From positions 1 through 38,400 of the forward strand of contig CBDCTJ010000002.1 of assembly GCA_965222115.1 (NCBI GenBank): 38,400 bases of DNA, given 5' to 3'. This document shows positions 506 to 36,804 of the stretch, one piece after another. Each line of letters starts with the position of its first letter. Position 1 is the first letter of the stretch. This stretch comes from Planctomycetota bacterium (GTDB lineage: Bacteria; Planctomycetota; PLA2; JAEUHO01). Below the pieces are notes generated by a model that was given only the letters and a program-made list of their open reading frames with translations, had not been told where the DNA came from and did not search any database. A program made the translations under genes and the position numbers.

Positions 506-1390
506 CTACCACTCATCGTCGCGCATCGGTTCGCCGCTGAACAACTCGCCGTCCGGTGTGACACCGGTTTCTTGTATGGCGCGCGTCGCTTCGTCGGCTT
601 GCTTGGAACCCTGCAGGTCCACGTCGTCTGTAAACTCTTTCGGTACTTCTCCGGTAGATACATAGCACTCGTCCTCGGTTAGCGTTGTCTCGAACGGTGT
701 TTCCTCTCCACGCTCGGTCCGCTCGTCTACGTTGATCGCACGCAGGAAAGCAGGGTCAAGCGGTAGTGTCTTGCACAGTCGCCGAATGACCGTCTTTTTC
801 GCCATCTCGCCCCAGTGCTTCTCCCACGCCTTGCTTCTGGAGGACGCGCTGGTCTGGCGCACGTGATCAACTTCATCGCGCGTCATCACGTCAACAGCGG
901 GCGGACCATCGGGCATGTGCGCTATGGCGTAAACCCCGATAGGTGTGCGCTTGCCGGGCGCTAGGCCTGGTTTGTGAGTAACGCGCGGGCGCTCGCCAAG
1001 CTCAATCTCGAACTCATCGCCCTCGTAGACGACGTGAGCTACCACCCGGTCAACCAGCTCACTGCGGTACGCGAGTTTCAAGAACCCGCGATAATCCACC
1101 ATGATCGTCGCGTGCATCCCGCCGTTCATATTGCGCGGGATCAAGTGAACCTGCGGCGGGTACGTCTCAGGTTCCAGCCCCATAGCGGCGCACTGCATCA
1201 ACGCGGACTGAAGCGAAGCAAGTGAACACCGAAGCAGGTCCGGCTTTGACATGATCGCGGTTTGGCACACACGAGCCAGCCGCACCGGGTCCACGCCGTC
1301 AACAACCGCCTTTTGAATCTCAGGTAAAGACCGCTGCACCATCGACGCAACAGACTTGCGCTTTTCGTTTAGCACCATGCTCGTATTCAT
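506..1390 (-). CDS. recT: RecT-family single-strand annealing recombinase
   Basis: Typical RecT motifs: CSLASLQSALMQCAAMGLEP, VDYRGFLKLAYRS, VYEGDEF, WEKHWGEMAKKTVIRRLCKTLP; acidic C-terminal tail. Confidence 0.95.
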   Translation of the reverse strand: MNTSMVLNEKRKSVASMVQRSLPEIQKAVVDGVDPVRLARVCQTAIMSKPDLLRCSLASLQSALMQCAAMGLEPETYPPQVHLIPRNMNGGMHATIMVDYRGFLKLAYRSELVDRVVAHVVYEGDEFEIELGERPRVTHKPGLAPGKRTPIGVYAIAHMPDGPPAVDVMTRDEVDHVRQTSASSRSKAWEKHWGEMAKKTVIRRLCKTLPLDPAFLRAINVDERTERGEETPFETTLTEDECYVSTGEVPKEFTDDVDLQGSKQADEATRAIQETGVTPDGELFSGEPMRDDEW

Positions 1391-2241
1391 ACTCGCTCCA
1401 GTCCGACGCGCTCACGCATCTCATTCAGTCGCCAGCGAGATAAGCCGATTGGCTCTACCTTCTCGCTTGGCGGGGGCCATGTTCCATCCTCGACGCACTT
1501 CGCTACGCTACGCCGTAAGTCGATATTGTTCGCATACGCTGTCTCAAGCGTCAACGGGTCTAGTGTATAAACGCGGGGCAAGTATGGCGCGTCCTGTCCG
1601 ATCACTGCGTACACGTAGTGCTTCTGTTTCTCGCCCGTCGTTATACTAAACACGTCCATGTAGTGCGCGGCAGACATCCACCACCCGTTGTTCCATAGTG
1701 AGTTAGCAAAAGACGATGGGTCCGTTCCCTTCCCAGTCGTCTTTACGTCACCGATGATTCGTTGTTCGGGTACACGCGCGTCACAACGGGCTTTTAGAAG
1801 TAGCCCGGTCTCCGGGCACTCGGCGATTGCAACGACCTCGCGATGCCCCTCGCTGTTGTTCAGAAGGCTACGGAACAACGGGTTTTCATAAGCGCGGGAA
1901 ACGAGCGCGTCAATGCGGTCAAACGTAGACCTGCGCTCAACACGCTTGCCGGCCTTTACAGCGTCGTCCTTCTGTTTCTTCCATGGGTTTCGGTTCATCG
2001 GACCGTCAACCCACACGACATCCTCGGGCGGCCACGACTCAGGCTCAAGCAGCGCCGTGTGTGCGAGCGTGCCGAACGACTTCGCGGGGCTCGGTTTGTC
2101 AAGCGCGGTGCGGTAGTAGTTACACGCCTCGGGAGACTCAAGCATCTTCGACAAGTCGGAACACGACCACGCGGGGTGTGATAGGTAATCGGCCATCGGT
2201 ACGCCGTGGTGGAGGCCTACGCCTAACGGATCGGAAGTCAT
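1387..2241 (-). CDS. PD-(D/E)XK exonuclease, RecE/ExoVIII-like (DUF3799 type)
   Basis: FGTLAHTALLEPE, ETGLLLKARCD, IIGDVKTT and AAHYMD motifs; ATGA-coupled to recT; start taken at MTSDPLG (2241). Confidence 0.9.
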   Translation of the reverse strand: MTSDPLGVGLHHGVPMADYLSHPAWSCSDLSKMLESPEACNYYRTALDKPSPAKSFGTLAHTALLEPESWPPEDVVWVDGPMNRNPWKKQKDDAVKAGKRVERRSTFDRIDALVSRAYENPLFRSLLNNSEGHREVVAIAECPETGLLLKARCDARVPEQRIIGDVKTTGKGTDPSSFANSLWNNGWWMSAAHYMDVFSITTGEKQKHYVYAVIGQDAPYLPRVYTLDPLTLETAYANNIDLRRSVAKCVEDGTWPPPSEKVEPIGLSRWRLNEMRERVGLERV

Positions 2242-2366
2242 ACGCACACCGCCAATCCAACGACAGCCGCCGCGACCATGGCGACAACACACAGAAAAAC
2301 GACCCCGCTTCGGGCCACGTCGTCACCCGTGCGACCTTGGCCGCCCTTGATACCGTCGGGCCTCAT
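2238..2366 (-). CDS. 42-aa single-TM peptide
   Basis: MRPDGIKGG...VVFLCVVAMVAAAVVGLAVCV; ATGA overlaps at both ends; below the ORF-track cutoff. Confidence 0.6.
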   Translation of the reverse strand: MRPDGIKGGQGRTGDDVARSGVVFLCVVAMVAAAVVGLAVCV

Positions 2367-2590
2367 GACGTCACCCCCGCAGCTTCGAGGATTGCATTGC
2401 GAACGGAGTCTGGGTCTGCTAGATCATCCTCGCAAAAGTCCACCCACTCCCCGTGGATAGAAACCTGGATCCACTCAACGCACGACCCCTCGGGCGGCTC
2501 GGCGGGGTTCGAGTCCCAGTGGCCCACCGTGACGCCCGCACGGCACTCAAAGTCAATACCGCAAACATTGATAGTCGTCTCAACGATCAT
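2363..2590 (-). CDS. Small acidic phage hypothetical protein
   Basis: Coupled ORF with an SD-like sequence; GHWDSNPAEPPE resembles a common phage early-protein motif. Confidence 0.65.
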   Translation of the reverse strand: MIVETTINVCGIDFECRAGVTVGHWDSNPAEPPEGSCVEWIQVSIHGEWVDFCEDDLADPDSVRNAILEAAGVTS

Positions 2591-2843
2591 TACTCGCCCC
2601 CTCTGGGAATAAACGTGCGTGGTCCTCTACCGCCAGCTTCGCGGCGGCCTTGATCCGTAGGCGCGCGCCGCACGAAAAATCCTCCGAGTTTGCGTGAGCC
2701 CAGCGACCCATCGAATAGGCGCCGCCGGCACCATCGATACGCACTTCGATGTCCTGAATCTCGCCTCGACGCACATAGACCGTTCCAAGGCACCGTCGCC
2801 CGAACAGCTCCACGAAAAAGAATCGTTCCTCAGTCTTTGCCAT
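2580..2843 (-). CDS. Hypothetical protein
   Basis: 87 aa ORF overlapping both neighbours; GCAGGA before ATG. Confidence 0.6.
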   Translation of the reverse strand: MAKTEERFFFVELFGRRCLGTVYVRRGEIQDIEVRIDGAGGAYSMGRWAHANSEDFSCGARLRIKAAAKLAVEDHARLFPEGASNDR

Positions 2844-3051
2844 TTTCCTGCCTTTCCGCCGCGACGGTCATCGCCGCGAGCATTTCCGATGGTTTCCATT
2901 TCAGGGCGGCCCCAATCGCCTTGACCGTGGCTAGGCGCACGAAATCGCCCCCTGCCTCGACCTTCGCGACCGTGGGCACGCTCACGCCGGCCGACTCGGC
3001 AAGCGCCTCCTGGGTCATCCTGAGCGATTCTCGGCGCTCTTTTGGTGTCAC
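2830..3051 (-). CDS. Cro/XRE-family helix-turn-helix regulator
   Basis: RRESLRMTQEALAESAGVSVPTVAKVEAG...LATVKAIGAAL is a classic XRE HTH; GAGGGAG SD before GTG. Confidence 0.9.
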   Translation of the reverse strand: MTPKERRESLRMTQEALAESAGVSVPTVAKVEAGGDFVRLATVKAIGAALKWKPSEMLAAMTVAAERQENGKD

Positions 3052-3091
3052 GGTATAATCTCCCTCGCGCCAACTAAGCAGAGCGGCCCGC

Positions 3092-3628
3092 CTACCATTC
3101 GGCGCGCACCAAGCGACGGCGGCCGCTGGGGTAGACGATTAGGACACCGTGCCCCGGCATCGCGCGGCGGTCACTCACCTGGAGGCGCTCATCGCCCTCC
3201 TCGACGGCGCGTGCGTACGCCAGGGCGCCTTTTTGGGGCCGCTCCACGGACACGGTTGAGCAGGCTTCGCCGCGGCGGCAGTCACACGTACGGCGTCCAC
3301 GCTCGTCCACCGGGCACGCGTGGGCTATGATCTCTACGCTCGCCGAGTGTGGCGAGCGGAACGCCGCCATTGCCGCCAGCAATTTGGCGGACGGCTCCCA
3401 ATAGTGGTAGCTGTACGTCGACTGGCTTGTTTCCTCCATCGCAAAACAAAAAACGTCGGGTTTTTCGCCTTTGCGGTGCGCGTGCCCGCGCACCTCGGCG
3501 TATGGATGGTGATACACCGTGGTTCGCTGCGGACGCCAGTTCGTGGGGTCCGCGCAATATTCGCACTGGTGTGCGCCGAGCGTCGCCAGTTCTTTCATTG
3601 TGGGCTTCTTCGTCGATTTCGTTCTCAT
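3092..3628 (-). CDS. Cys/His-rich early hypothetical protein (possible metal binding)
   Basis: 178 aa with HQCEYC and HAC...CDC...C motifs; own SD (GAGGG) and leader hairpin. Confidence 0.6.
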   Translation of the reverse strand: MRTKSTKKPTMKELATLGAHQCEYCADPTNWRPQRTTVYHHPYAEVRGHAHRKGEKPDVFCFAMEETSQSTYSYHYWEPSAKLLAAMAAFRSPHSASVEIIAHACPVDERGRRTCDCRRGEACSTVSVERPQKGALAYARAVEEGDERLQVSDRRAMPGHGVLIVYPSGRRRLVRAEW

Positions 3629-3667
3629 TTTGCTTCCCTCTGCCCTTGCCCAGGGTGTTTCGGCGCG

Positions 3668-3910
3668 TTACGCGTTCCGCGCACCATCGACACTAACGAG
3701 CTCGTCGGTATCGCGGTGGCGCATGACGACTCCCCAACCTTTGTATCCCTCTACCTCGGTGACATCTTCGTAGCCCTGGTCTTGCAGCCAGTAGGTTACG
3801 TCGGCTACGCTCGTCGCTACCTCGCCATCCCACATGTCGGGGAGCATGTCTTCGCCCAGGTTGTAGGCGCCTGCGTCGGTTTTGGTCATTTGCTTGATTG
3901 TGATGGCCAT
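3668..3910 (-). CDS. Small acidic early protein directly downstream of the hammerhead
   Basis: 80 aa; AGGA SD 6 nt before ATG; leader hairpin. Confidence 0.75.
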   Translation of the reverse strand: MAITIKQMTKTDAGAYNLGEDMLPDMWDGEVATSVADVTYWLQDQGYEDVTEVEGYKGWGVVMRHRDTDELVSVDGARNA

Positions 3911-3952
3911 GATGTGTCCTTTTGCTCTTGCTAGGGCGTTTGCGTGGGGGCG

Positions 3953-4014
3953 ACCCGCGGTGCCTCATCAGAGTGGGCGCTACCCACTGACGCCCGAGGG
4001 CGTTTCGGCGGGGC
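3953..4014 (-). ncRNA. Type II hammerhead self-cleaving ribozyme
   Basis: Minus strand GCCC-C-GCC-GAA-ACGCC(CUCG)GGCGU-C/AGUGGG(UAGCG)CCCACU-CUGAUGA-GGC-ACCGC-GGGU: intact CUGAUGA and GAAA core, G-C pair closing stem II, perfect stems I and III, GUC triplet with cleavage predicted between 3989 and 3988; intergenic and sense to the operon. Confidence 0.93.
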
Positions 4015-4214
4015 TACGAGCGCCACTCACCGCGCTCTGGTGTCTCATGGCAGATTTTGATCGCGGTGGCTGCGCGATCGCTGCCAGCGTCGATCTCCTC
4101 GATAGCCTCGGCGCTAGGCCACCACACGCCACCGCCGATGTCGTCGCTCACCGTCATGATTCCGCCGTATTCGTTGGCGGTGTAGTTTTCGATTTTCGTT
4201 GCGTGGTCAGTCAT
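4014..4214 (-). CDS. Small acidic early protein, first gene of the leftward operon
   Basis: MTDHATKIENY...GEWRS (66 aa) with AGGAG SD 7 nt upstream; the stop codon abuts the ribozyme. Confidence 0.75.
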   Translation of the reverse strand: MTDHATKIENYTANEYGGIMTVSDDIGGGVWWPSAEAIEEIDAGSDRAATAIKICHETPERGEWRS

Positions 4215-4263
4215 TGTGGATCTCCTGGGCTTGCCGGCCCCGCGAGGCCCCATCGCCTCGACT

Positions 4264-4313
4264 GACCCAAAGAATAGTTTGGATTGCGAGAAACACAAAG
4301 AAAAGTTTGGGTC
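4264..4313 (-). promoter_or_regulatory. Leftward sigma70-like promoter overlapped by two operator-like repeats
   Basis: Minus TTGTGT-N16-TATTCT; plus-strand 15-mers CAAAGAATAGTTTGG (4268-4282) and CAAAGAAAAGTTTGG (4296-4310), 14/15 identical and dyad-like (CAAA-N6-TTTG). Confidence 0.7.
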
Positions 4314-4335
4314 GCGTGGGCGTCTTGGGCGTATT

Positions 4336-4355
4336 TGGTGGGCAATTGTCCACCA
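4336..4355. promoter_or_regulatory. 20-bp near-perfect palindrome in the divergent intergenic region
   Basis: TGGTGGGCAATTGTCCACCA, one G/T mismatch pair. Confidence 0.45.
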
Positions 4356-4400
4356 GAATTGTCGGCCGACGTGTATACGATCGCGCGAAAGGCAGGACAA

Positions 4401-5006
4401 ATGACCAAAAAGACGAAGAAAAAGAGTCGTAAGGCGCGGGCTCGACGTGAACGACCCGTCAGGTACCAAGAATCCCTGGCCGTCGTCGCCCCCGAATTCA
4501 TCTCGATCGAGGAAGAAATGGGATGCCTCGATTGGGTGGCGAGGAACGTCAAGGGGTACGGCCCGGCCATGACGCCGGGTGGAGATTTAGACCCCAATAA
4601 TGTTGTGTGGGTGCAATACAAGATAGATACCGATTGGTCAGGTGCATCAGAACTTCGCCGGCGCGTCTTCAAGTACGCCGCCGAGTGGTTCGAACCTCTC
4701 GACGTGGACCCGTTCGAAGTCGAGCATTTTGAAATGCACTCTTCCATCTACCACCACGGCGGCCAGCGTGATTGGTACTCATGGCGCGATGGTTGGCGGA
4801 AAATCGCGTGGGAACTACACCTAAGCACCCCGCACCAGATGTTCACGGGCGGCGCTCTTGAGTTTTACGATGGCAAGCTGTTCGAACCCGAGTCGCGCAA
4901 ACTCATCGCATACGACTGCAAGCAACGTGTCCGCGTCAAGCCGGTGGCATGTTACAGCTCCGAACTAGCTCACGGAAGGGTGTCGATTCATGGCTGGATC
5001 GGATAG
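4401..5006 (+). CDS. 2OG-Fe(II) oxygenase-fold protein (prolyl-hydroxylase-like), apparently lacking Fe ligands, with basic N-terminus
   Basis: RKIAWELHL...FTGGALEFYD...FEPESRKLIAY...VKPV...GRVSIHGWI follows the double-stranded beta-helix pattern of this family; ATG at 4401 with GGCAGGA SD. Confidence 0.7.
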   Translation: MTKKTKKKSRKARARRERPVRYQESLAVVAPEFISIEEEMGCLDWVARNVKGYGPAMTPGGDLDPNNVVWVQYKIDTDWSGASELRRRVFKYAAEWFEPLDVDPFEVEHFEMHSSIYHHGGQRDWYSWRDGWRKIAWELHLSTPHQMFTGGALEFYDGKLFEPESRKLIAYDCKQRVRVKPVACYSSELAHGRVSIHGWIG

Positions 5007-5370
5007 GCCCTATTCGGAACGCTTCGACGTTGAATCTCTGGCGTACATGACGGACTTCAAAAACGTGCCACCGCATGATGCGATGCTGCGAGGCATTGAG
5101 CTTGGCCGTGTATACCAACGCCTGCTTGAACCCGACGCGTTCTCAATGCCGATAAGCCCGAAGAACGGTAAGCAAGTCGCCCGCATGGTCGATGCGATGG
5201 GTAGAAATGGTCGCGTTCGTTTAGGCGTTGGTGTGGGTGTATGCGATTGCATTGTGATAGTGCAGGAGGCACCAGGCTATGGGCAGAGAGACGACAGCGA
5301 CAACCTAGCAGTGAAAAAAATACTACTTGCGCATGGCGCACATTGTGATACCGACGCCGATGCCCCATAG
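4990..5370 (+). CDS. Hypothetical protein
   Basis: 126 aa ORF overlapping the upstream plus-strand gene and converging on the late operon. Confidence 0.6.
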   Translation: MAGSDRPYSERFDVESLAYMTDFKNVPPHDAMLRGIELGRVYQRLLEPDAFSMPISPKNGKQVARMVDAMGRNGRVRLGVGVGVCDCIVIVQEAPGYGQRDDSDNLAVKKILLAHGAHCDTDADAP

Positions 5371-5387
5371 GAAGCAAAGAAACTCGA

Positions 5388-6179
5388 TCATGCGTACGCC
5401 GCCAATGCTGCGGTTACGTACGCATCAACCGCCGTGTCCTGGTTTGCGTGTACGTCGGGGTCATCGAGCAGCACCATCTGCCCGATAGACGCGTAAAAAT
5501 TCGTTGCTATCGAGTCAGGGGCGTAAGCTGCCCGCATCCAGCGCTCTTGGTATGCAACCAGACGATTATTGGCGTCGGTGTCGGTCATGACGCTGCTCGC
5601 AGTCAATACGGTTTCGGTCGGCGACCCGTGAACCGTTCGGTTCTTCATGGTTCGGTTTTCTAGATCCCATGACGCGATGCAAACCATCCACGTGTTTGTC
5701 GGTGCCGTCACGTTTGCAGACCCAACGCCTTTGGCTCCCGTACGGAAGGACGACGAAAACGCACATTGATACCTAGAATCACCATCTGTCCATAGACCTG
5801 TAGGGGCCAGCGCAGAGTGGTCATCATTGGCGTAACCGATGGGTGTTCCGTCATCACTAAAGTCCGCCATGTACGCAAACTTGGAGTTCATCCTCACGTT
5901 GCAAATAGTGATGATAGACCCGCGTGGGAGAAACGGATTACGACGTTCAAAATATTGGCCCTCTAAGTCCTGGAAATCCAAGCACTCGTGTCCCGGCTCT
6001 GACCCAACGTGTCCGTTTCGAATCGTACTTCCGTCGTTGAATGTTGGCGCTGCACCAACATTGAGCAACGGAACATTCGACGGCCCTTGGTCTGCAAGCT
6101 CGCCGCTTGCGTACTGCCCGCTCACGAACTCGTATGCACTGATAACGCGATCAAGGTTTGCGATGCTGATAAGCGCCAT
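5388..6179 (-). CDS. Beta-rich virion accessory protein, possibly LamG/ConA-like lectin fold
   Basis: 263 aa; TNTWMVCIASWD and FYASIGQMVLLD resemble LamG strands; TAATG-coupled to the esterase. Confidence 0.5.
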   Translation of the reverse strand: MALISIANLDRVISAYEFVSGQYASGELADQGPSNVPLLNVGAAPTFNDGSTIRNGHVGSEPGHECLDFQDLEGQYFERRNPFLPRGSIITICNVRMNSKFAYMADFSDDGTPIGYANDDHSALAPTGLWTDGDSRYQCAFSSSFRTGAKGVGSANVTAPTNTWMVCIASWDLENRTMKNRTVHGSPTETVLTASSVMTDTDANNRLVAYQERWMRAAYAPDSIATNFYASIGQMVLLDDPDVHANQDTAVDAYVTAALAAYA

Positions 6180-7474
6180 TACGTGCCCTTCGCCAGTGAC
6201 TGCGGAATCGCGTAGTCGTAGAGCGTGTCGGATTCAGGCCCGACGCCGAGCGTCTCAACTGCCCGAACATTCACTCGAGGCCAGAATGTAGTTGGTTTAG
6301 TGGCTCCGTAGTCTGTCTCATGCTGCCCGATTCGCATGGTTTCCGTGCCCGTCGGGGCGCTCGCAAGAGTGATAGTCGCGGTGTCATCTGCATACGCGAC
6401 GTTGGTAATTTCTATGTGGGTGCCGTCGTCAAAGAACTCAAATCCATCGTGCTGGTCTGGAAAGTCTGTCGCATCTATTTGAGCCAAGTCGCCCTCTTCG
6501 ACGTCTCGATTGAAGACAACGGTGACAGTTGTTCCGCTCCGCGTAAACTCGCCGGATGGCACATGGAGCGGTTTCCACGGCGTTCCGCTACTCACACGGT
6601 CAATGATCACTGCAGACGCCTCTGCAATCCTCCGCTTGCCCTCGCCGTCGTAGTGGACCAGCAGGGCGTCGCCATCCGCGTAGTATGGTTGCGGAGACGG
6701 GAGAAGGTTGAACCCCGCGACGTTGTTCATCGCGTAGATAGTTGCGGATTGAACCGCGCGTCCGCCCGACAAGTAGTTACCAGAACCCAAAGGCATGAAG
6801 AACACAGGATCGGTGCGCGTCCAATCATCAAAGACCAGGCGACACAGATGTCGCCAACCATCTACCATTTGCTGGCATATGCTGCGGTACTGCGTTTCGT
6901 CCACCCGCGCTTCGCTTGTACCGCCGCCCGGAGCAGTCGTGTCGGCATCCGCCTCGCCATGTGCGATGAGACAGTGGACTTTGATTTGCGAATCGGCGTA
7001 ACCTAGCGAACTTGCCCAAAGAACAAACGCTCTGAGCGCTATACCGAGCGTTCCGTAGATGCCGGTGCCTGGCATGATTTCCCGCCAATGCTTCGAACCT
7101 ACTGCCGCCGAGTAATGCCCAACCTTCTCAACCTGTGTGCGTACTTGTTGGATCGTCGCCGCAAGTCCGTGTGCCCATCCCTCGCCAATTGGATGAGCAG
7201 CGCCACGAGAGACCCATGCGCCTGAAAAGTTGTCCCACGTTTGGACCTGAGCATCACTGACGTGGTTAGATTGCCCGCCCTCGCTAGTTGGCCCTGTTTG
7301 AAACCCGCCGTTTGGTCGATACAGGTTGTCAACGGAAGAGGAGTACGGGGTGTTGCCACGCGCGCGTGCGTTTGATTGTCCCCAACCGAAGAACCCGTGA
7401 ATCTCCGCTTCTTGCACACCGTCAGAATCTGTGGGGTAATATCCCCGTAGTGTGAATAGTCGATTTCGGGGCAT
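6179..7474 (-). CDS. SGNH hydrolase, sialate O-acetylesterase (SASA)-like, probably virion-associated
   Basis: GWGQSNA (nucleophile block), AHGEAD and DALLVHY motifs, plus a beta-rich C-terminal domain (TRSGTTVTVVF); start at MPRNRLF. Confidence 0.75.
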   Translation of the reverse strand: MPRNRLFTLRGYYPTDSDGVQEAEIHGFFGWGQSNARARGNTPYSSSVDNLYRPNGGFQTGPTSEGGQSNHVSDAQVQTWDNFSGAWVSRGAAHPIGEGWAHGLAATIQQVRTQVEKVGHYSAAVGSKHWREIMPGTGIYGTLGIALRAFVLWASSLGYADSQIKVHCLIAHGEADADTTAPGGGTSEARVDETQYRSICQQMVDGWRHLCRLVFDDWTRTDPVFFMPLGSGNYLSGGRAVQSATIYAMNNVAGFNLLPSPQPYYADGDALLVHYDGEGKRRIAEASAVIIDRVSSGTPWKPLHVPSGEFTRSGTTVTVVFNRDVEEGDLAQIDATDFPDQHDGFEFFDDGTHIEITNVAYADDTATITLASAPTGTETMRIGQHETDYGATKPTTFWPRVNVRAVETLGVGPESDTLYDYAIPQSLAKGT

Positions 7475-7476
7475 GG

Positions 7477-7809
7477 CTACCCCTTGTTGACCAAGACAAC
7501 CGACTCGTCTCTGGATGGCGCGCTTGCCGGGACAATCGACATCCAACGGAACAAGCCTGCGATCTCAGGTAAGTTAACCGCAGTGTCGGCAACGCTATCA
7601 ACGGTCACATCAGATCCACCGTCTTTTAGTAGCGCCAGGCTATCCCGTTCAGCGCCTACTTTGATGGTCAACGTAGCTCCGCCGGTGTACCCAGCGGGGA
7701 AAATGAGACCGAACCCAGCCGACCCGCCGATAAACACTGGATCGGATTCTGTTTCGCCGCTTCCAATATCTATACTTTCGTATCCAGACAGACGACCAAT
7801 GAGGGACAT
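7477..7809 (-). CDS. Small beta-sandwich phage structural protein
   Basis: 110 aa, IGSGETESDPV...GLIFPAGYTGGATLTI pattern; GGAG SD. Confidence 0.55.
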   Translation of the reverse strand: MSLIGRLSGYESIDIGSGETESDPVFIGGSAGFGLIFPAGYTGGATLTIKVGAERDSLALLKDGGSDVTVDSVADTAVNLPEIAGLFRWMSIVPASAPSRDESVVLVNKG

Positions 7810-25664: not shown

Positions 25665-25860
25665 TGGTCAGGCCCTCACGTTCTAGAAGTCGTTGCACGT
25701 TTCGACGTACTGCTAGTGTCGATTGTTTGGTCCTGCCTTGGATGATCCTGTATACGCTTTCGCGGCTCGCGGGTATCTGGCGCGCGACCCACGCAACACC
25801 TCGGCGATGCGCCAACTGCTCAAGTCTGCGCCGGTCGTTGTCCCATCGTGATCCACTCAT
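25627..25860 (-). CDS. Small HTH DNA-binding protein inside the head module
   Basis: GVAWVARQIPASRESVYRIIQGRT is HTH-like; TGATG-coupled to gpF. Confidence 0.65.
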   Translation of the reverse strand: MSGSRWDNDRRRLEQLAHRRGVAWVARQIPASRESVYRIIQGRTKQSTLAVRRNVQRLLEREGLTNGNDNQRDGNPE

Positions 25861-26768
25861 CAGAGCACCATGGTCGATGTGAACCGGTCGGGTCGGAAGT
25901 GTGTAAAGCCCTTGTCTGGGCCAGCCCTAGCGGGTATTCGTGATGCGCGTAACGAGCCGTCCGCGCCTATGCGGCCCATGCGCTTGAGCTGCGCTCGGTT
26001 TACGAATGATGCCGTGCATCTGCAATTAAATCCCAAAGGGGGAGCTATCTCGTCCCACCCCGGATCATCCACAGCGAGTATCACGCCGTCCGCCGCCATG
26101 TGATTGGGTCGCGTGTCTGCATCCCCAACGGCGTCGAAGCGCAGCGCCGGTATCACTTGTCGAACGTCCGGGTCTCGGGCCTGTCTGAATCGACCCGCAC
26201 TGATGCCCGTATTGACGTTGGTACGAAACGCAGCTTGCGAGTAAGCGCGCGACCAGTCGGCGGTGAGTGGTGTCGTACTAGATCCCCGCATCAACTTGTC
26301 CACAGCTTCCGCTTCCGGCGTGCCCTCGAACACTGCTTGCGCGATGATTGATTGAGCGCGGTCAACTACTGCGCGTTCGGTCGCGCGTGAGAACGCAATA
26401 GCATTCTGCTCTGAATAGATTTGCGCTATCTGCTCCGCTGTCCTACCGGCAGCGCGTTGTAGCGGTACCGGTATGCGCTCGGCTAGTTCCTCAACGGCCT
26501 CGATGAACGTTACGCGGGGCAACACCGGGCTAGCCGCCGCGAAGTTAGCTCCGCGTGTCGCCGCCTCTAGCGCGAGTGACGCGCCTATGACTTCGCTGCG
26601 TCCAATCGTCTCGCGTACAACATCACCGACTTTCAATCGTGCGTCATCCATGCGCGAACCATTGACCGCCAAGTAAGCGCCCATCATCTCCTGCACCGCT
26701 TCAAAGTATTGAGGGATGCGGCGATGCTGGATCTCGGCCAGTAGTCGGGTGCTGGCTTTGCGGGACAT
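25860..26768 (-). CDS. Mu gpF/SPP1 gp7-like minor head protein
   Basis: FRTNVNTGISAGR, DAVGDADTRPNH, PPLGFNCRC. Confidence 0.92.
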   Translation of the reverse strand: MSRKASTRLLAEIQHRRIPQYFEAVQEMMGAYLAVNGSRMDDARLKVGDVVRETIGRSEVIGASLALEAATRGANFAAASPVLPRVTFIEAVEELAERIPVPLQRAAGRTAEQIAQIYSEQNAIAFSRATERAVVDRAQSIIAQAVFEGTPEAEAVDKLMRGSSTTPLTADWSRAYSQAAFRTNVNTGISAGRFRQARDPDVRQVIPALRFDAVGDADTRPNHMAADGVILAVDDPGWDEIAPPLGFNCRCTASFVNRAQLKRMGRIGADGSLRASRIPARAGPDKGFTHFRPDRFTSTMVL

Positions 26769-28109
26769 CTATCTCACCCCGAAACCCGTGCTATCCATCC
26801 CTGGGAACCCGCCGATTCCTGGTGCTGGTATCTCTCGGGGCTCTAGAACGTCTTCGCCATCTTCCGGCGCCGTGAATCCCGTCTGCTCATAGACCTCGCG
26901 GCGTGACAGCGGAAGCCCGGCAGCCACAAGCACTGAGACGACTTCTGCGCGTTCCTTCGGATCCTGACGCTTCTCTTGCGTGATTGAGAAACGCGGCAGG
27001 CCTTCATTGGAAAGCCCTAGCTCGACGATGTTGGGCCAGTTCTTTGTCCACAGACAGCCGATCAAGTCACGGGTTAGCGTTTCCTCAAGCGACTCGCGAT
27101 CGTATTGAATGAGTGCTTCGGTGCTGTTCTCTTGGATCGCGGCTAGTGCATACGAACCGCCTTCGGTCGCACCGGTCGTTAGGTTTGCTCCGAGCACGCA
27201 CGTAAAGATCATTCTCCGTAGTTCGTCGCGTAGGTCTTTGAGTAACTGCCACCCCTGTGCGGCAACCGGCATCGCCTCGATGTCATCGTCCTTGTCGAAA
27301 ATCAGTGCCCCCGACTCGATCGACTCTTGCATCATGGCGAGCCACTCGCGCATGACTTCGACGTTTGGCAGACCGGTTGACGAGTCCTTGAGCCCGTCGA
27401 TCTTCACCATGAACTTGCCGCGCCCGTGTGCTTCTGCTGCAGTCAAGCTCTCCTGAAATACGTGTTCTTTCGCGTACCACGGCCATGCGAGTGCATCGCG
27501 CAGCCCACGCCCGTACCCTAGTGCGCCTTCTATGTCCTGGTAGACGTGCTCGATTGTTTGAATCGATCCGGCCTCAGATTGGTCGATCCATTCTTCTGTA
27601 GCCATGCTCCAGACTTGGCGAGGTGCCACGACTGGATCTCCACGCATACGATCAACGGGTGTGAACCTGAATCGGCGCTTGTCCATGTCGTGCAGCACCG
27701 TTGGAGCCCACCATGTACGCTCTACGCCGTCTCCGATGCTCAGCGTCTTGGCTTCTAGTTGGATCGATGCGTATCGTGAACCAGAAAAGAATGCGCGAGA
27801 CAGTCTCATGCGCGCGCCCGTGAAATCGGTGATACACCCCAACAGCTTGCGCGCCGTCTCGGCTGCGAGTTGCCCGCGATCCGTGTCCGCGTCGGCAGGC
27901 GTACAGGTCCATTGACGACCGGCGATCAAGTGCTGACGATAGCCAACTACGTGCGCGATGTCCGCGTCAAGAAGCATCTTCTCTTCGAGGTCGGGTTCCC
28001 GAAGTAGCCACGTAGACGGGTCGATGGTCCGCGACCGCCGCCACGCGGCCGATAGAGCGCGGACGTACTGCTGCCGCGCGTTGTGCCAAATGCGCAGTTC
28101 TTGAGACAT
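26769..28109 (-). CDS. Portal protein, Mu gp29/DUF935-like
   Basis: DADIAHV, YGRGLR, VLGANLTT...GGSYALA, PRFSI; between terminase and gpF. Confidence 0.9.
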   Translation of the reverse strand: MSQELRIWHNARQQYVRALSAAWRRSRTIDPSTWLLREPDLEEKMLLDADIAHVVGYRQHLIAGRQWTCTPADADTDRGQLAAETARKLLGCITDFTGARMRLSRAFFSGSRYASIQLEAKTLSIGDGVERTWWAPTVLHDMDKRRFRFTPVDRMRGDPVVAPRQVWSMATEEWIDQSEAGSIQTIEHVYQDIEGALGYGRGLRDALAWPWYAKEHVFQESLTAAEAHGRGKFMVKIDGLKDSSTGLPNVEVMREWLAMMQESIESGALIFDKDDDIEAMPVAAQGWQLLKDLRDELRRMIFTCVLGANLTTGATEGGSYALAAIQENSTEALIQYDRESLEETLTRDLIGCLWTKNWPNIVELGLSNEGLPRFSITQEKRQDPKERAEVVSVLVAAGLPLSRREVYEQTGFTAPEDGEDVLEPREIPAPGIGGFPGMDSTGFGVR

Positions 28110-28319: not shown

Positions 28320-29780
28320 TCACCACCGTTTGCGCGACGTATGCCGTCGCCAACCTGGTGCCGCCTGCCGAGGACGCTCGCTCGGGTGTATATCACGAAT
28401 CTCTTGGTCTTGCACGGGTTTCGTGTAGGGGCGCCCGGCGCGTTGTGCGCCCGCCCCGTGACGCGCGAGCCATTCAAAGGCCCCGGATGATGCGTCCACA
28501 AGGTCCATCAAATCGCCATCGGGGAACGATTCAAGCTCATCGAAGTAGCCGTTCATCCACTGACCGGACACGATTCGAACCCCGCACCGAAGCCACTGGT
28601 TCATAAACCCACGCTCAAGTTCGGCAGACATCGGCGTCGCACGGTGTTCCTTTGCGCCGGTAGGCTTCTCCCCGATCACCCTCACGCCCGCCGCTTTCAG
28701 CTTCTTTTCGAGGGCTTCGAACTGGGCGATCCCGCCTGATCCGGGCTCGATCTCGATGCCCACTCGAACTGCAGGGCCGTCTCCCTTGGCTGTCGCCACG
28801 ATCCGCTCGTCTCTGCGGCCCGGCGACAGGCGGAAAGCTACCGCGTGTTCAACGCCGTACGCGCCCCAAACGTCTCGCCACATCTTGACGCCTGCCGTGC
28901 GCTTGGCCTCGGGCTTCTCGGACGCCGCAAGGTCCCACCAGCGGATTCGAACCGCGTCTTTGTTGGGTGGTGCGTCTGCCTCATCCAGCGGAGGCCCGAA
29001 CCACTCGGCCCGGAAGTAGTCGCCCGCCTCGCGCGCCGACCAGTCGCCGTCCAGTAGCTGTTGACGGAGGGTGGTCGGTAGGTGCATGAGCCCCTGCACG
29101 TACTCGTCAGCGTCTACGCTCGGGTTGTCCTTGAGGGCGGACCGGATGAAAACCCTGTTGCCACGAGTATCTGGGTTTATGAATCGGTCGCGTACCCACA
29201 CGTGCCCTCGGCCGCCTGGGTTCGATGCGGAGAGGGATCGCAGGGGAATCTTGGATCCGGCCTGCCGACGCACGCGGGATAGGGCGACGTACGAGTACTG
29301 GGGTTCTAGGAACTGGGTCAGCTCATCCCAGCCCGTGAAGTGGTACTCGGCGCCCTGGTATCGGAAGTGGTCCTGCGGCCCGGCTAGGTAGGCGAGCGCC
29401 ACCTTCGCCCCACTCGGGAAAGTCCATATCTTGTCAGACCCGTTCCAGTGTGCGTCTGTCCTGGCCCACCACTCCTGGGATCGGTCGAGAAGCGCGCCAG
29501 GTTGAGCTAGATCCGTGTGTGTGCGGCGGAACAGGATGCCCTTGTAAGCGGGTTCGTGGACGTACTGGGCCGATGCCATCAGCAACGCGTCGGACTTCCC
29601 ACCGCCTACCGAGCCTCCGAAAAGGGCCTCAAGGACGCCTTGCCCCTCGTTGCGCATGCTAAGGAACAACGCCTGCCGAGGGTGCGGCAAGTGGGGAATG
29701 TACGGATTGAACGCGATGTGCGGGCAAATCTGATCGATCAAGCTCGCGGCTTCGATCAAGTGTTCGGGTGGGCCTCGCAC
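28320..29780 (-). CDS. terL: Terminase large subunit
   Basis: Walker A FGGSVGGGKS, Walker B GWDELTQF, SNPGG, LKDNP, nuclease motifs RWWDLAAS and DLVDASS. Confidence 0.96.
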   Translation of the reverse strand: MRGPPEHLIEAASLIDQICPHIAFNPYIPHLPHPRQALFLSMRNEGQGVLEALFGGSVGGGKSDALLMASAQYVHEPAYKGILFRRTHTDLAQPGALLDRSQEWWARTDAHWNGSDKIWTFPSGAKVALAYLAGPQDHFRYQGAEYHFTGWDELTQFLEPQYSYVALSRVRRQAGSKIPLRSLSASNPGGRGHVWVRDRFINPDTRGNRVFIRSALKDNPSVDADEYVQGLMHLPTTLRQQLLDGDWSAREAGDYFRAEWFGPPLDEADAPPNKDAVRIRWWDLAASEKPEAKRTAGVKMWRDVWGAYGVEHAVAFRLSPGRRDERIVATAKGDGPAVRVGIEIEPGSGGIAQFEALEKKLKAAGVRVIGEKPTGAKEHRATPMSAELERGFMNQWLRCGVRIVSGQWMNGYFDELESFPDGDLMDLVDASSGAFEWLARHGAGAQRAGRPYTKPVQDQEIRDIHPSERPRQAAPGWRRHTSRKRW

Positions 29781-35543: not shown

Positions 35544-36804
35544 CTAGCTCTTGTTGAGTATTAGTGATTCGTCAAACCCGCAAAGCGTGCGGTGTGCCTG
35601 TTCGCACGTCGTCACCTCTGCGGGGACTTCCATGTAATAGACGCGGCCTGTCGATCCATCTGTACCGACCAAGAACACGCGCCCTTCGTCGTCACGCATC
35701 AAGCATCTGTGCGCCGCACCCTTTCGCGCGCCTTCGTAGTCAGCGTGTAACACTTTCGCGCCCGTGTCGGTTAAGTATCTGCCCTCGCCGTAGCGCTCAC
35801 GCATAACGCGGCGGATCTCCGCATTTGTTTCGCCCTTGATTGAATTGACGGTGATTGCATCGGGCTTAGTGATTACACTTTCGGGAACGCGCACGCCATG
35901 CCAACCATACACACTCAAAAGGCCATCTGGATATGCGATGGCGGGACCATCTTCGCAGTGGATACGCCCACGATCGTCAAGCTCAAGAACATTGTGACGA
36001 TGCTGCAAGATGGCGATGTTTTTGTACGGCGCCCACCACCCAGTGGTTCGCGCTATACCCATCAACCCGCCTAGCTTTTCGCAGCACTTAAGCCCAAGCG
36101 CATAACGCATGTACGCATAGAACGAAATCCATCCAGCGTCGTGCGAGCCCCCGACTTGGCCCCCGACTTGGTCCCAGACTTGGCCCCAGACTTGGCCCCT
36201 GACTTGGTCCCAGACTTGGTCCCTGACTTGGCCCCCAGACTTGGTCCCTGACTTGGCCCCCGACTTGGTCCCAGACTTGGCCCCAGACTCTGGCCCCTGA
36301 CTTGGTCCCAGACTTGGTCCCCGACTTGGTCCCAGACTTGGCCCCAGACTTGGCCCCTGACTTGGTCCCAGACTTGGTCCCTGACTTGGCCCCAGACTTG
36401 GTCCCTGACTTGGCCCCCGACTTGGTCCCAGACTTGGGCCCCAGACTTGGCCCCTGACTTGGTCCCAGACTTGGTCCCCGACTTGGTCCCAGACTTGGCC
36501 CCAGACTTGGCCCCTGACTTGGTCCCAGACTTGGTCCCTGACTTGGTCCCAGACTTGGTCCACCCTGCTCGCGTCTCGAAGCATCACTGCCGCCAACGCC
36601 CCGCCAATCGGACTCCCCATCATTAAGTACATTTTAGGCGGCTCAAGCCCCGCCGCTCGGTACGCGTTAGCGACATGCACCTTGGCTTGCTCGACATCAC
36701 AAGGTGTCTGTTGACAGGCCGATCTTGATCCACTCGTCTCTGTACTCGGCGAGCTGCTCGACTTGCTTATCGGTCAGGCGCTCGACTTTCTTTTGCTTAC
36801 GCAT
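35544..36804 (-). CDS. DUF6745-like protein with internal [W/R/G][D/G]QV tetrapeptide repeat
   Basis: N-terminus [32 protein letters not shown] joins the listed ORF across a +1 indel near 36705; C-terminal GWWAPY...[20 protein letters not shown]...WHGVRVP...NAEIRRVM...DGSTGRVY. Confidence 0.8.
36153..36563. repeat. Coding tandem repeat, 34 x 12 bp (GACTTGGYCCCH), with a 156-bp higher-order period
   Basis: Counted unit by unit; three units are 13 bp (starting 36225, 36286, 36431); units 2-14 repeat as units 15-27. Confidence 0.97.

What the first reader, a model, noticed from the sequence alone, without database searches (positions are those of the whole stretch)
3953..4014. Intact type II hammerhead ribozyme splitting the phage early transcript between two small genes
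Seen: every conserved core base (CUGAUGA, GAAA, GUC), stem I AGUGGG/CCCACU, stem III ACGCC/GGCGU, and stem II GCC/GGC extended by GCCC/GGGU around an ACCGC bulge whose CGC could pair with GCG in loop I. It starts at the stop codon of 4014..4214 and ends about 40 nt before the next ATG, in sense orientation. Known: hammerheads occur in phage-like DNA among small early genes and their role is largely unresolved. Inference: cleavage at 3989/3988 would detach the first cistron and give the downstream cro-recE-recT message a 5'-OH end, an RNase-independent processing step.
Basis: partly seen in the sequence, partly recalled or inferred. Interest (0 to 1): 0.9.

Follow-up and report, generated by a model that had tools for sequence, protein, structure and literature searches.

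The report
Type II hammerhead ribozyme in phage operon
A complete self-cleaving hammerhead RNA motif sits between two small genes at the start of a phage operon; it looks genuine, but it belongs to a kind of phage ribozyme that has been known since 2011.

Summary
On the minus strand, 4009..3962 carries a complete type II hammerhead. It has GAAA, GUC with cleavage at 3989/3988, and CUGAUGA. Stem III has 5 bp, stem I 6 bp and stem II 3 bp, and all three core-adjacent pairs are Watson-Crick.

Rfam RF02276 is the best hit in the window: 30.1 bits, below the gathering score of 37, E 0.027. My descriptor finds this site only. It found 0 hits in 1000 shuffles of the window and no other hit in the 4.55-Mb assembly.

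The same core and stem III occur in more than 120 viral stretches and 113 genome stretches. Stems I and II covary strongly among them. The window's copy belongs to a compact subclass with a 6-bp stem I and a U...G pentaloop. Rfam's threshold missed 14 of the 14 such copies I tested.

The setting is typical. The motif is in sense orientation, 7 nt after the stop of a 66-aa ORF and 53 nt before the ATG of an 80-aa ORF. That ORF pair starts a leftward operon (HTH, RecE-like, RecT) beside a divergent control region.

Three things are not supported or not shown: the proposed 3-bp pseudoknot, which is at chance level; transcription; and cleavage.

Verdict: a new member of a known kind, of modest interest.

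The parts
4014..4214 (-). Upstream 66-aa ORF (ATG 4214, stop TAG 4016-4014). It is the first gene of the leftward operon and an orphan.
   Evidence: ORF list; coding-type GC1/2/3 of 0.55/0.51/0.75; no Pfam or PHROG family; atlas best score 0.89, a lead only.
3954..4010 (-). Extent of the Rfam Hammerhead_II match (all 66 model positions).
   Evidence: 30.1 bits against a gathering score of 37; E 1.2e-4 in the local scan and 0.027 for the whole window.
3962..4009 (-). Minimal ribozyme: stem II 5' strand, GAAA, stem-loop III, C17, stem-loop I, CUGAUGA, stem II 3' strand.
   Evidence: Sequence; custom model R1 gives 53.2 bits (partly circular, see report); descriptor hit.
3990..4003 (-). Stem-loop III: ACGCC / CUCG / GGCGU, including the A15.1-U16.1 pair.
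   Evidence: the cmscan alignment.
3988..3989 (-). Predicted scissile bond, 3' of C17 (3989) and 5' of A1.1 (3988).
   Evidence: Position in the hammerhead consensus (alignment). Cleavage itself was not tested.
3972..3988 (-). Stem-loop I: AGUGGG / UAGCG / CCCACU. This is the compact form: 6 bp, a G-C closing pair and a U...G pentaloop.
   Evidence: Among 49 relatives with a 17-nt stem-loop I, the first loop base is U in 47, the fifth is G in 34, and the closing pair is G-C in 43.
3965..3971 (-). Core CUGAUGA.
3953..3961 (-). 3' tail ACCGCGGGU. It may form an interrupted extension of stem II with 4014-4010. The 3-bp complementarity to loop I is not significant.
   Evidence: Constrained fold; pseudoknot statistics.
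3668..3910 (-). Downstream 80-aa ORF (ATG 3910; AAGGA at 3921-3917), an orphan.
   Evidence: GC1/2/3 of 0.64/0.38/0.72; no family.
3092..3628 (-). 178-aa orphan ORF, the second gene downstream.
   Evidence: no relatives in viral contigs.
2830..3051 (-). 73-aa Cro/CI-type HTH protein, the third gene downstream.
   Evidence: Pfam HTH_3, E 9.2e-09; phrog_5823 transcriptional regulator, E 3.3e-12.
1387..2292 (-). RecE-like exonuclease.
   Evidence: Pfam DUF3799, E 2.4e-15; phrog_412 exonuclease VIII, E 3.8e-56.
506..1390 (-). RecT annealing protein.
   Evidence: Pfam RecT, E 7.8e-43; phrog_148, E 1.3e-62.
4215..4400 (.). Divergent intergenic region between the leftward operon and rightward genes (4401-5006 and 4990-5370, + strand). 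It is the presumed control and promoter region and holds an 18-bp near-palindrome at 4337-4354.
   Evidence: ORFs and codon-position GC; palindrome located. No sigma-70 consensus match, so the promoter is inferred.

Best explanation
This is a genuine type II hammerhead self-cleaving ribozyme of the compact phage-borne form. It is encoded in sense orientation in the 103-nt spacer between the first ORF (66 aa) and the second ORF (80 aa) of the leftward operon of a roughly 38-kb tailed phage or prophage contig. Once the 3' strand of stem II has been transcribed, the RNA folds into three helices around the CUGAUGA/GAAA core. The 2'-OH of C3989 then attacks its own phosphate and cuts the transcript between 3989 and 3988. 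The upstream product is the 66-aa ORF message. It ends in the G+C-rich stem III hairpin and a 2',3'-cyclic phosphate. The downstream product starts with a 5'-OH directly on the stem I hairpin and carries the 80-aa ORF, the 178-aa ORF, the HTH gene, the RecE-like gene and RecT. The likely consequence is that the first cistron is physically uncoupled from the rest of the operon, so the two parts can differ in stability and translation. Shown here: the motif, its statistical significance, its membership of a large covarying family, and its typical position from stop codon to ribosome-binding site. Inferred: transcription, cleavage and the physiological effect.
For: Every core base is present and all three core-adjacent pairs are Watson-Crick. 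These are the acceptance criteria quoted in PMC3088659 (passages). Rfam RF02276 is the best hit of the window, E 0.027. The descriptor gives 1 hit against 0 in 1000 shuffles, and only this site in the 4.55-Mb assembly. In 46 compact relatives, 98.4% of cells are paired, and 9 of 15 pairs change on both sides. That is all 6 pairs of stem I and 3 of 4 pairs of stem II; stem III was fixed by the pattern. No shuffle (0 of 500) reached the observed covariation score. The window's stem-loop I fits this subclass. Context matches too: 115 of 121 viral sites have a sense ORF ending within 80 nt upstream and one starting within 120 nt downstream, against 41 of 121 on the antisense strand. The window has 7 nt and 53 nt. 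The canonical fold lies 0.5-2.0 kcal/mol above the MFE. Both flanking ORFs show coding-type codon-position GC, and the overlapping alternative frames do not. Relatives of this class cleave in vitro and in vivo (PMC3088659 passages; PMC8782182 abstract and passages).
Against: The Rfam score (30.1) is below the gathering score of 37. Stem II has 3 bp followed by a C-A mismatch, whereas 64 of 77 compact relatives have 4 bp and only 1 of 77 has 3 bp. The 5' flank is C where 59 of 77 have A. No significant tertiary contact was found: only 3 bp of loop I-tail complementarity. The MFE of the 72-nt RNA uses a competing CCCGC/GCGGG helix in place of canonical stem II, and its energy is no better than shuffles (z -0.04). 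No orthologous locus was found, so there is no site-specific conservation evidence. No promoter consensus was found. The R1 score of 53.2 bits is partly circular, because the model's members were collected with a pattern taken from the window itself.
Confidence: 0.75

Rival explanations
1. It is a true hammerhead by descent, but a slow or decayed copy. The lost fourth pair of stem II and the lack of a tertiary contact would leave it with little cleavage at cellular Mg2+, so the operon would stay essentially uncut.
For: Stem II has 3 bp plus a C-A mismatch, against 4 bp in 64 of 77 compact relatives. The conserved flanking A is replaced by C. A competing helix appears in the MFE. PMC3088659 reports that changes in stem length or tertiary contacts lower k_obs by orders of magnitude, and that some phage variants are slow (passages and section 7).
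Against: The core is perfect and all three core-adjacent pairs are intact. PMC3088659 states that stem II is commonly as short as two pairs. The canonical fold is within 0.5-2.0 kcal/mol of the MFE. A possible interrupted extension could compensate.
Confidence: 0.15
2. The ribozyme is active, but its selected role is not plain separation of cistrons. One option is regulated cleavage, gated by ribosomes terminating on the stop codon next to stem II. Another is that it marks the border of a mobile small-gene cassette that travels between phages.
For: In the family the stop codon lies a median of 4 nt before GAAA; the distance is 2-6 nt in 86 of the 117 sites that have an upstream ORF. A terminating ribosome would therefore cover stem II and GAAA (inference). 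The flanking genes are small, with medians of 87 and 99 aa, and they vary. Of 117 downstream ORFs, no PHROG family is matched by more than 4, and 43 families are hit in all. At least 11 of the 80 loci listed carry two copies. PMC3088659 raises regulated cleavage for phage hammerheads.
Against: Tight spacing may simply reflect compact phage genomes. There is no direct evidence for gating or mobility. The window has a single copy, and its spacings of 7 and 53 nt are looser than the family's.
Confidence: 0.07
3. It is a chance match in G+C-rich DNA with no RNA function.
For: The Rfam score is below the gathering score. The folding energy is not better than shuffles. No orthologous conservation is available.
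Against: There were 0 descriptor hits in 1000 shuffles. It is the only hit in 9.1 Mb of two-strand sequence. It lies exactly in a sense-strand spacer of a phage operon, the typical context, and its stem-loop I matches subclass-specific features that were not part of the search pattern.
Confidence: 0.03

Closest known systems
Type II hammerhead ribozymes of bacteria and prophages (Rfam RF02276; Perreault et al. 2011, PMC3088659)
   Same: Identical core, the same permutation (stems I and III closed, stem II open), a short stem II, and a location between small genes of phage origin. The printed hypothesis is the same: long phage transcripts are processed into gene-length mRNAs.
   Different: It lacks the pseudoknot of 4 bp or more between loop I and the 3' tail that defines the published consensus, having only 3 bp. 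It scores 30.1 bits, below the gathering score of 37. It belongs to a compact form: 6-bp stem I with a U...G pentaloop.
Compact short-loop type II hammerheads in IMG/VR viral contigs and GTDB genomes (collected here; 77 of 245 distinct sites)
   Same: Identical stem III and core, by construction of the search. A 6-bp stem I closed by G-C, a pentaloop starting with U and ending with G, and a position from stop codon to ribosome-binding site.
   Different: Stem II has 3 bp plus a C-A mismatch instead of 4 bp (64 of 77). The 5' flanking base is C rather than A (59 of 77). The leader to the next start is longer: 53 nt against a median of 27.
Three type II hammerheads of Desulfovibrio vulgaris near phage-like and HTH genes (cyPhyRNA-seq, PMC8782182)
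   Same: Type II motifs next to hypothetical, phage-like and HTH genes. Their cleavage was detected in vivo and in vitro (abstract and passages). This shows that such motifs are active in cells.
   Different: A different organism and different loci. No sequence comparison with them was made here, and no expression data exist for the window.
HHphage of haloviruses HF1/HF2 (Perreault et al. 2011)
   Same: A hammerhead at the 5' part of an early polycistronic phage transcript, close to a start codon. The mapped 5' end lies within 3 nt of the cleavage site.
   Different: That one is a core variant needing high Mg2+ in an archaeal virus, and it sits 13 nt before the first ORF. Here the core is canonical and the ribozyme follows the first ORF.

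Membership tests
Hammerhead ribozyme, type II (RF02276) | Conserved core: CUGANGA, GAAA, and UH at the cleavage site. | tested here: met
   CUGAUGA 3971-3965, GAAA 4006-4003, GUC 3991-3989.
Hammerhead ribozyme, type II (RF02276) | Three helices around the core, with no mispair at 10.1-11.1, 1.1-2.1 or 15.1-16.1. This criterion is quoted from PMC3088659. | tested here: met
   G3964-C4007, A3988-U3972 and A4003-U3990. Stem I has 6 bp, stem III 5 bp and stem II 3 bp, with no internal mispairs.
Hammerhead ribozyme, type II (RF02276) | Type II permutation: stems I and III closed by loops, stem II open. | tested here: met
   The order along the RNA is II-5', GAAA, hairpin III, C17, hairpin I, CUGAUGA, II-3'.
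Hammerhead ribozyme, type II (RF02276) | Rfam gathering score of 37 bits. | tested here: not met
   30.1 bits. The cut-off also missed all 14 compact relatives tested: 4 scored 26.3-33.4 bits and 10 were not listed at E of 1 or less. This failure therefore reflects the subclass rather than decay.
Hammerhead ribozyme, type II (RF02276) | Pseudoknot of 4 bp or more between loop I and the tail after stem II. This is the majority feature of the published consensus. | tested here: not met
   Only 3 bp (GCG 3980-3978 with CGC 3959-3957). A run of 3 bp or more occurs in 30% of permuted short-loop pairs. PMC3088659 notes that many hammerheads lack this contact (section 7).
Hammerhead ribozyme, type II (RF02276) | Mg2+-dependent self-cleavage 3' of C17. 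| not testable with these tools
   Needs in vitro transcription or end mapping. No RNA run is listed for this DNA.
Hammerhead ribozyme, type II (RF02276) | Covariation that supports the helices. | tested here: inconclusive
   At family level the support is strong: 46 compact relatives, 98.4% of cells paired, 0 of 500 shuffles reaching the observed score. No orthologue of this particular locus was found, so the site itself has no comparative support.
Compact short-loop subclass (defined here) | A 17-nt stem-loop I: 6 bp, a G-C closing pair and a pentaloop U-N-N-N-G. | tested here: met
   AGUGGG-UAGCG-CCCACU. The subclass frequencies are 47 of 49, 34 of 49 and 43 of 49.
Compact short-loop subclass (defined here) | A 4-bp stem II flanked by A on the 5' side. 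| tested here: not met
   3 bp, then C4010 opposite A3961, with C in the 5' flank. The subclass has 4 bp in 64 of 77 and a 5' A in 59 of 77.

The most novel reading that the evidence does not exclude
In this compact phage class, the type II permutation may be selected because it makes a ribozyme-based cistron separator that translation can gate. Cleavage leaves the upstream mRNA ending in the stem III hairpin with a cyclic phosphate. It leaves the downstream mRNA starting with 5'-OH on the stem I hairpin, so both products are end-protected. The stop codon of the upstream ORF abuts stem II (family median 4 nt, here 7 nt), so a terminating ribosome would unfold the ribozyme. Cleavage, and with it the ratio of first-gene to downstream early message, would then depend on how heavily the first ORF is translated. 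Here that would operate on the first gene next to the phage's divergent control region.
Probability: 0.12. Interest if true: 0.6.

Novelty: new member of a known kind. Interest (0 to 1): 0.3.

Why it matters
If active, the ribozyme is an RNase-independent processing site about 225 nt into the leftward operon that carries the HTH regulator and the RecE/RecT recombination genes of this phage. It would let the first small gene and the rest of the operon have separate fates. That is a concrete and easily tested case for the long-open question of what phage hammerheads do (PMC6765202 passages). There is also a practical point for annotation. The Rfam gathering threshold missed this copy and all 14 compact relatives tested, so this form is probably under-annotated in phage genomes. 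Otherwise the finding is ordinary: the ribozyme class, its prophage context and the processing hypothesis have been in print since 2011.

Tried and rejected
Searches for close relatives of the locus all failed, so site-specific conservation could not be tested.
- blastn of 3000-5400 against 50,697 phage records found no match.
- DNA of 3600-4300 against 60 relatives' genomes gave only short chance-like matches of 26-35 nt.
- The search for related loci found no relative for the 178-aa, 80-aa and 66-aa ORFs in viral contigs, nor for the RecE-like protein in genome contigs.
- A window-specific stem I pattern had 0 matches in metagenome contigs.
- RecT in metagenome contigs gave 14 distant loci (29-41% identity). 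None has a type II hammerhead by my descriptor. One viral locus, L017, has a RecT at 33% identity with two hammerheads upstream. The RecT-hammerhead link is therefore not conserved.

The own-genome search with RF02276 scored only 150 of 1175 candidates and did not even return the window's site. I replaced it with my own descriptor.

The order-level pattern search covered 40 genomes. It gave 8 matches outside the own genome; by eye they lack the helices, and I did not test them formally.

No RNA holder is listed for 3300-4500. Two DNA rows hold a 0.09 share of words. I did not lay reads.

The atlas searches of the two small ORFs gave nothing usable: best score 0.89 for one and no hit for the other.

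I asked whether the partial second copy of the 5' half (3933-3949) is a general feature. AAACGCC within 3-70 nt downstream occurs in 1 of 218 sites, so it is not enriched.

The mir-BART1 hit on the + strand (26.6 bits against a gathering score of 70) is the complement of the same hairpins and was dismissed.

I did not request paper supplements. Dataset S1 and Figures S4 and S5 of PMC3088659 may already list or depict the compact form, and I could not check this. I made no dedicated literature search for the compact form, so I do not claim that it is undescribed.

Full report
WHAT IS THERE. Read on the minus strand, the 103-nt spacer lies between the stop of a 66-aa ORF (TAG 4016-4014) and the ATG of an 80-aa ORF (3910). 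It contains, in order:
- GCC (4009-4007);
- GAAA (4006-4003);
- the hairpin ACGCC-CUCG-GGCGU (4003-3990);
- C3989;
- the hairpin AGUGGG-UAGCG-CCCACU (3988-3972);
- CUGAUGA (3971-3965);
- GGC (3964-3962).
This is the complete hammerhead core in the type II permutation, with stems I and III closed and stem II open. The three pairs that touch the core are Watson-Crick: G3964-C4007, A3988-U3972 and A4003-U3990. That is the acceptance rule used in the reference survey (PMC3088659, passages read).

IS IT MORE THAN CHANCE? At Rfam's gathering thresholds nothing in the window matches. With E-value reporting, Hammerhead_II (RF02276) is the best hit of the whole window: 30.1 bits against a gathering score of 37, with all 66 model positions aligned. 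E is 0.027 for 38.4 kb, two strands and 4227 families, and 1.2e-4 in a 171-nt scan. A descriptor of my own required the core, a stem III of at least 4 pairs counting A15.1-U16.1, a stem I of at least 5 and a stem II of at least 3. It hits this site once and hits nothing in 1000 dinucleotide-preserving shuffles of the window. A relaxed version (CUGANGA; stems of at least 4, 3 and 2) finds only this site in both strands of the 4,549,939-base assembly. Folding energy alone is not informative: z is -0.04 for the 72-nt RNA. The MFE replaces canonical stem II with a shifted CCCGC/GCGGG helix. The canonical fold, with the rest left free to pair, lies only 0.5-2.0 kcal/mol above the MFE, depending on the flanks. 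The median for 46 relatives is 0.2.

THE FAMILY IT BELONGS TO. No close relative of the locus exists in any collection I could search. I therefore looked for the motif itself. The pattern GAAACGCC-N3-6-GGCGTC-N12-30-CTGATGAG has 22 fixed bases. It also occurs in 113 stretches of one-genome-per-species bacterial and archaeal contigs, whose titles span Actinomycetota, Pseudomonadota, Bacillota, Bacteroidota, Planctomycetota, Verrucomicrobiota and others.

Parsing them gives 245 distinct sites in two forms. The long-loop form (168 sites) mostly has a 3-bp stem II. Grouped by the parsed loop length (133 sites with more than 7 nt), its members carry the published pseudoknot between loop I and the 3' tail. 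A run of 4 bp or more occurs in 80% of them, against 30% when tails are permuted among members. The compact form (77 sites) has a stem-loop I of 18 nt or less and a 4-bp stem II in 64 of 77. The short-loop group of the pseudoknot test (112 sites with a parsed loop of 7 nt or less) shows little pseudoknot signal: 18% against 6%.

The window's copy is compact. Among the 49 members with a 17-nt stem-loop I, the first loop base is U in 47, the fifth is G in 34, and the closing pair is G-C in 43. The window has all three. None of these features was part of the search pattern.

In an alignment of 46 compact viral members (A1), 98.4% of cells are paired. All 6 pairs of stem I and 3 of 4 pairs of stem II change on both sides. 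No shuffle (0 of 500) reaches the observed covariation score, and sliding the 3' partners drops pairing to 30-47%. Stem III never varies there because the pattern fixed it.

A covariance model built from A1 (R1) scores the window's site at 53.2 bits, with the next hit at 8.4 bits. This is partly circular, because the members were collected with a pattern taken from the window. I use it only to show that the window's stem I, loop I and stem II fit the subclass.

WHY RFAM'S THRESHOLD MISSES IT. I scanned 13 viral loci that carry 14 compact members. Four were listed at 26.3-33.4 bits, ten were not listed at E of 1 or less, and none reached 37 bits. The only hit above threshold (39.3 bits, L072 1753-1816) is a different hammerhead that my pattern had not picked. 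The window's 30.1 bits is therefore typical of the subclass and not a sign of decay.

WHERE THE WINDOW'S COPY DEPARTS FROM ITS SUBCLASS.
- Stem II has 3 G-C pairs and then C4010 opposite A3961. Only 1 of 77 compact members has a 3-bp stem II.
- The 5' flanking base is C where 59 of 77 have A.
- An interrupted extension (4014-4010 with 3958-3953) is possible and appears when the canonical pairs are enforced.
A run of 3 bp or more turns up in 30% of permuted short-loop pairs, so I give it no weight.

PMC3088659 states that stem II is commonly as short as two pairs, that many hammerheads lack recognisable tertiary contacts, and that altered stem lengths can lower rates by orders of magnitude. Activity is therefore likely but could be slow.

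GENOMIC SETTING. In the file the window is the whole of contig C2 (38,400 bases) of a 7-contig assembly. It is phage DNA:
- terminase large subunit (28320-29780; phrog_979, E 3.4e-88);
- portal (26769-28109);
- a minor-head/DNA-pilot domain (25860-26768);
- a tail-fibre-like protein (6179-7546).
All of these are on the minus strand.

Codon-position GC shows that the long minus-strand frame 4211-4747 is not coding (0.47/0.59/0.60). Two plus-strand ORFs are coding: 4401-5006, with weak sub-threshold 2OG-Fe(II) oxygenase matches, and 4990-5370. So 4215-4400 is a divergent intergenic region, and it holds an 18-bp near-palindrome at 4337-4354.

The leftward unit starts with the 66-aa ORF. It continues through the hammerhead, the 80-aa ORF and a 178-aa orphan. 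Next comes a 73-aa HTH_3 (Cro/CI-type) protein at 2830-3051, followed by ORFs of 87 and 75 aa. The unit ends with a RecE-like DUF3799/exonuclease VIII protein and RecT. The gene just after the ribozyme is not cro, however, and no promoter was detected: 0 sigma-70-like sites in 2500-6500 against a mean of 1.7 in shuffles. The host's promoter type is unknown to me.

CONTEXT ACROSS THE FAMILY. Of 121 viral sites with at least 200 nt on each side, 115 have both a sense-strand ORF of 40 or more codons ending within 80 nt upstream and one starting within 120 nt downstream. On the antisense strand the figure is 41 of 121. The stop codon ends a median of 4 nt before GAAA (2-6 nt in 86 of the 117 sites with an upstream ORF). 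The next start lies a median of 27 nt after CUGAUGAG, and a Shine-Dalgarno-like motif is present in 87 of 119. An open frame of 100 or more codons spans 45 of these sites on the sense strand. I did not pursue this; in G+C-rich DNA such frames are common.

The flanking ORFs are small, with medians of 87 and 99 aa. Of 117 downstream ORFs, PHROG matches at E of 1e-5 or less fall in 43 families, none with more than 4 members. Three ORFs match anti-restriction families and one an SSB family; most of the rest have no known function. I did not scan the upstream set. At least 11 of the 80 loci listed carry two copies a few hundred to about 2700 nt apart.

All this reproduces what is already in print. 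Hammerheads flank single genes or short gene blocks of varying identity in prophages, and they cleave in 2-kb native transcripts (PMC3088659). The window's spacings of 7 and 53 nt are looser than the family's but of the same kind.

HOW IT MOST LIKELY WORKS. Shown: the motif, its significance, its family and its placement. Inferred from established hammerhead chemistry: after the 3' strand of stem II emerges from the polymerase, the RNA folds and cleaves 3' of C3989. My own inference from the type II topology is that the upstream product ends in the stem III hairpin with a 2',3'-cyclic phosphate. The downstream product begins with 5'-OH on the stem I hairpin, so both products carry terminal hairpins. 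The expected outcome is that the first cistron is uncoupled from the HTH-RecE-RecT message, with separate stabilities or translation. This is the hypothesis already printed for such ribozymes, and it is described there as still needing work (PMC6765202 passages). Type II hammerheads next to phage-like and HTH genes in Desulfovibrio vulgaris were shown to cleave in vivo and in vitro (PMC8782182 abstract and passages).

RIVALS. The rivals are a slow or decayed copy (0.15), a role other than plain cistron separation, such as ribosome-gated cleavage or a cassette border (0.07), and chance (0.03).

VERDICT. The pseudoknot detail and the gene labels need correction, and function remains inferred. 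It is a new member of a known kind. Its modest extra value is twofold. It belongs to a compact subclass that the Rfam threshold misses.

Noticed in passing
window 3933-3949 vs 3997-4013: A 17-nt direct repeat (14 of 17 identical). Downstream of the ribozyme lies a second, dead copy of its 5' part (minus strand CCCCACGCAAACGCCCU against CCCCGCCGAAACGCCCU). It has C in place of the essential G of GAAA, and no stem III partner follows. This is not a family feature: AAACGCC within 3-70 nt downstream occurs in 1 of 218 sites. Its origin is unexplained.
   Followed up: partly
window 4337-4354 (within intergenic 4215-4400): An 18-bp near-palindrome in the divergent region between the leftward operon and the rightward genes. 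It is a candidate operator for the HTH protein (2830-3051) or another regulator.
   Followed up: no
L011, L025, L034, L038, L039, L043, L061, L067, L069, L070, L072, L080, L108: Rfam RF02276 at its gathering score missed all 14 compact type II hammerheads in these viral loci. Four scored 26.3-33.4 bits and ten were not listed. This form is probably under-annotated.
   Followed up: partly
viral and genome loci, e.g. L009, L039, L061, L105, L114, L122: In 7 of 77 compact hammerheads the tail right after stem II reads AUCAG (AUCA in 11 of 77). That is complementary to CUGAU of the catalytic core. It occurs in 0 of 168 long-loop members. It could form an alternative hairpin that hides the core. 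The window's copy lacks it.
   Followed up: no
viral loci, analysed: The upstream stop codon ends a median of 4 nt before GAAA, and 2-3 nt before it in 48 of the 117 sites that have an upstream ORF. The stop codon therefore often overlaps the 5' strand of stem II, and a terminating ribosome would cover the ribozyme.
   Followed up: partly
L017 (viral contig locus): This locus carries a RecT homologue (33% identity over 193 aa) with two type II hammerheads about 1 kb apart, some 2-3 kb upstream on the same strand. It is the only one of 15 RecT loci examined with this arrangement.
   Followed up: partly
assembly contig C6 (48,116 bases): Its G+C is 39.7%, against 55-59% for the other six contigs. 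It may be a foreign replicon or binning contamination.
   Followed up: no
window 4401-5006 (+) and 35544-36680 (-): The rightward gene beside the control region has weak, sub-threshold 2OG-Fe(II) oxygenase matches (E 0.0031, 18.8 bits against a cut-off of 27). A 378-aa protein carries DUF6745 (E 1.4e-36).
   Followed up: no
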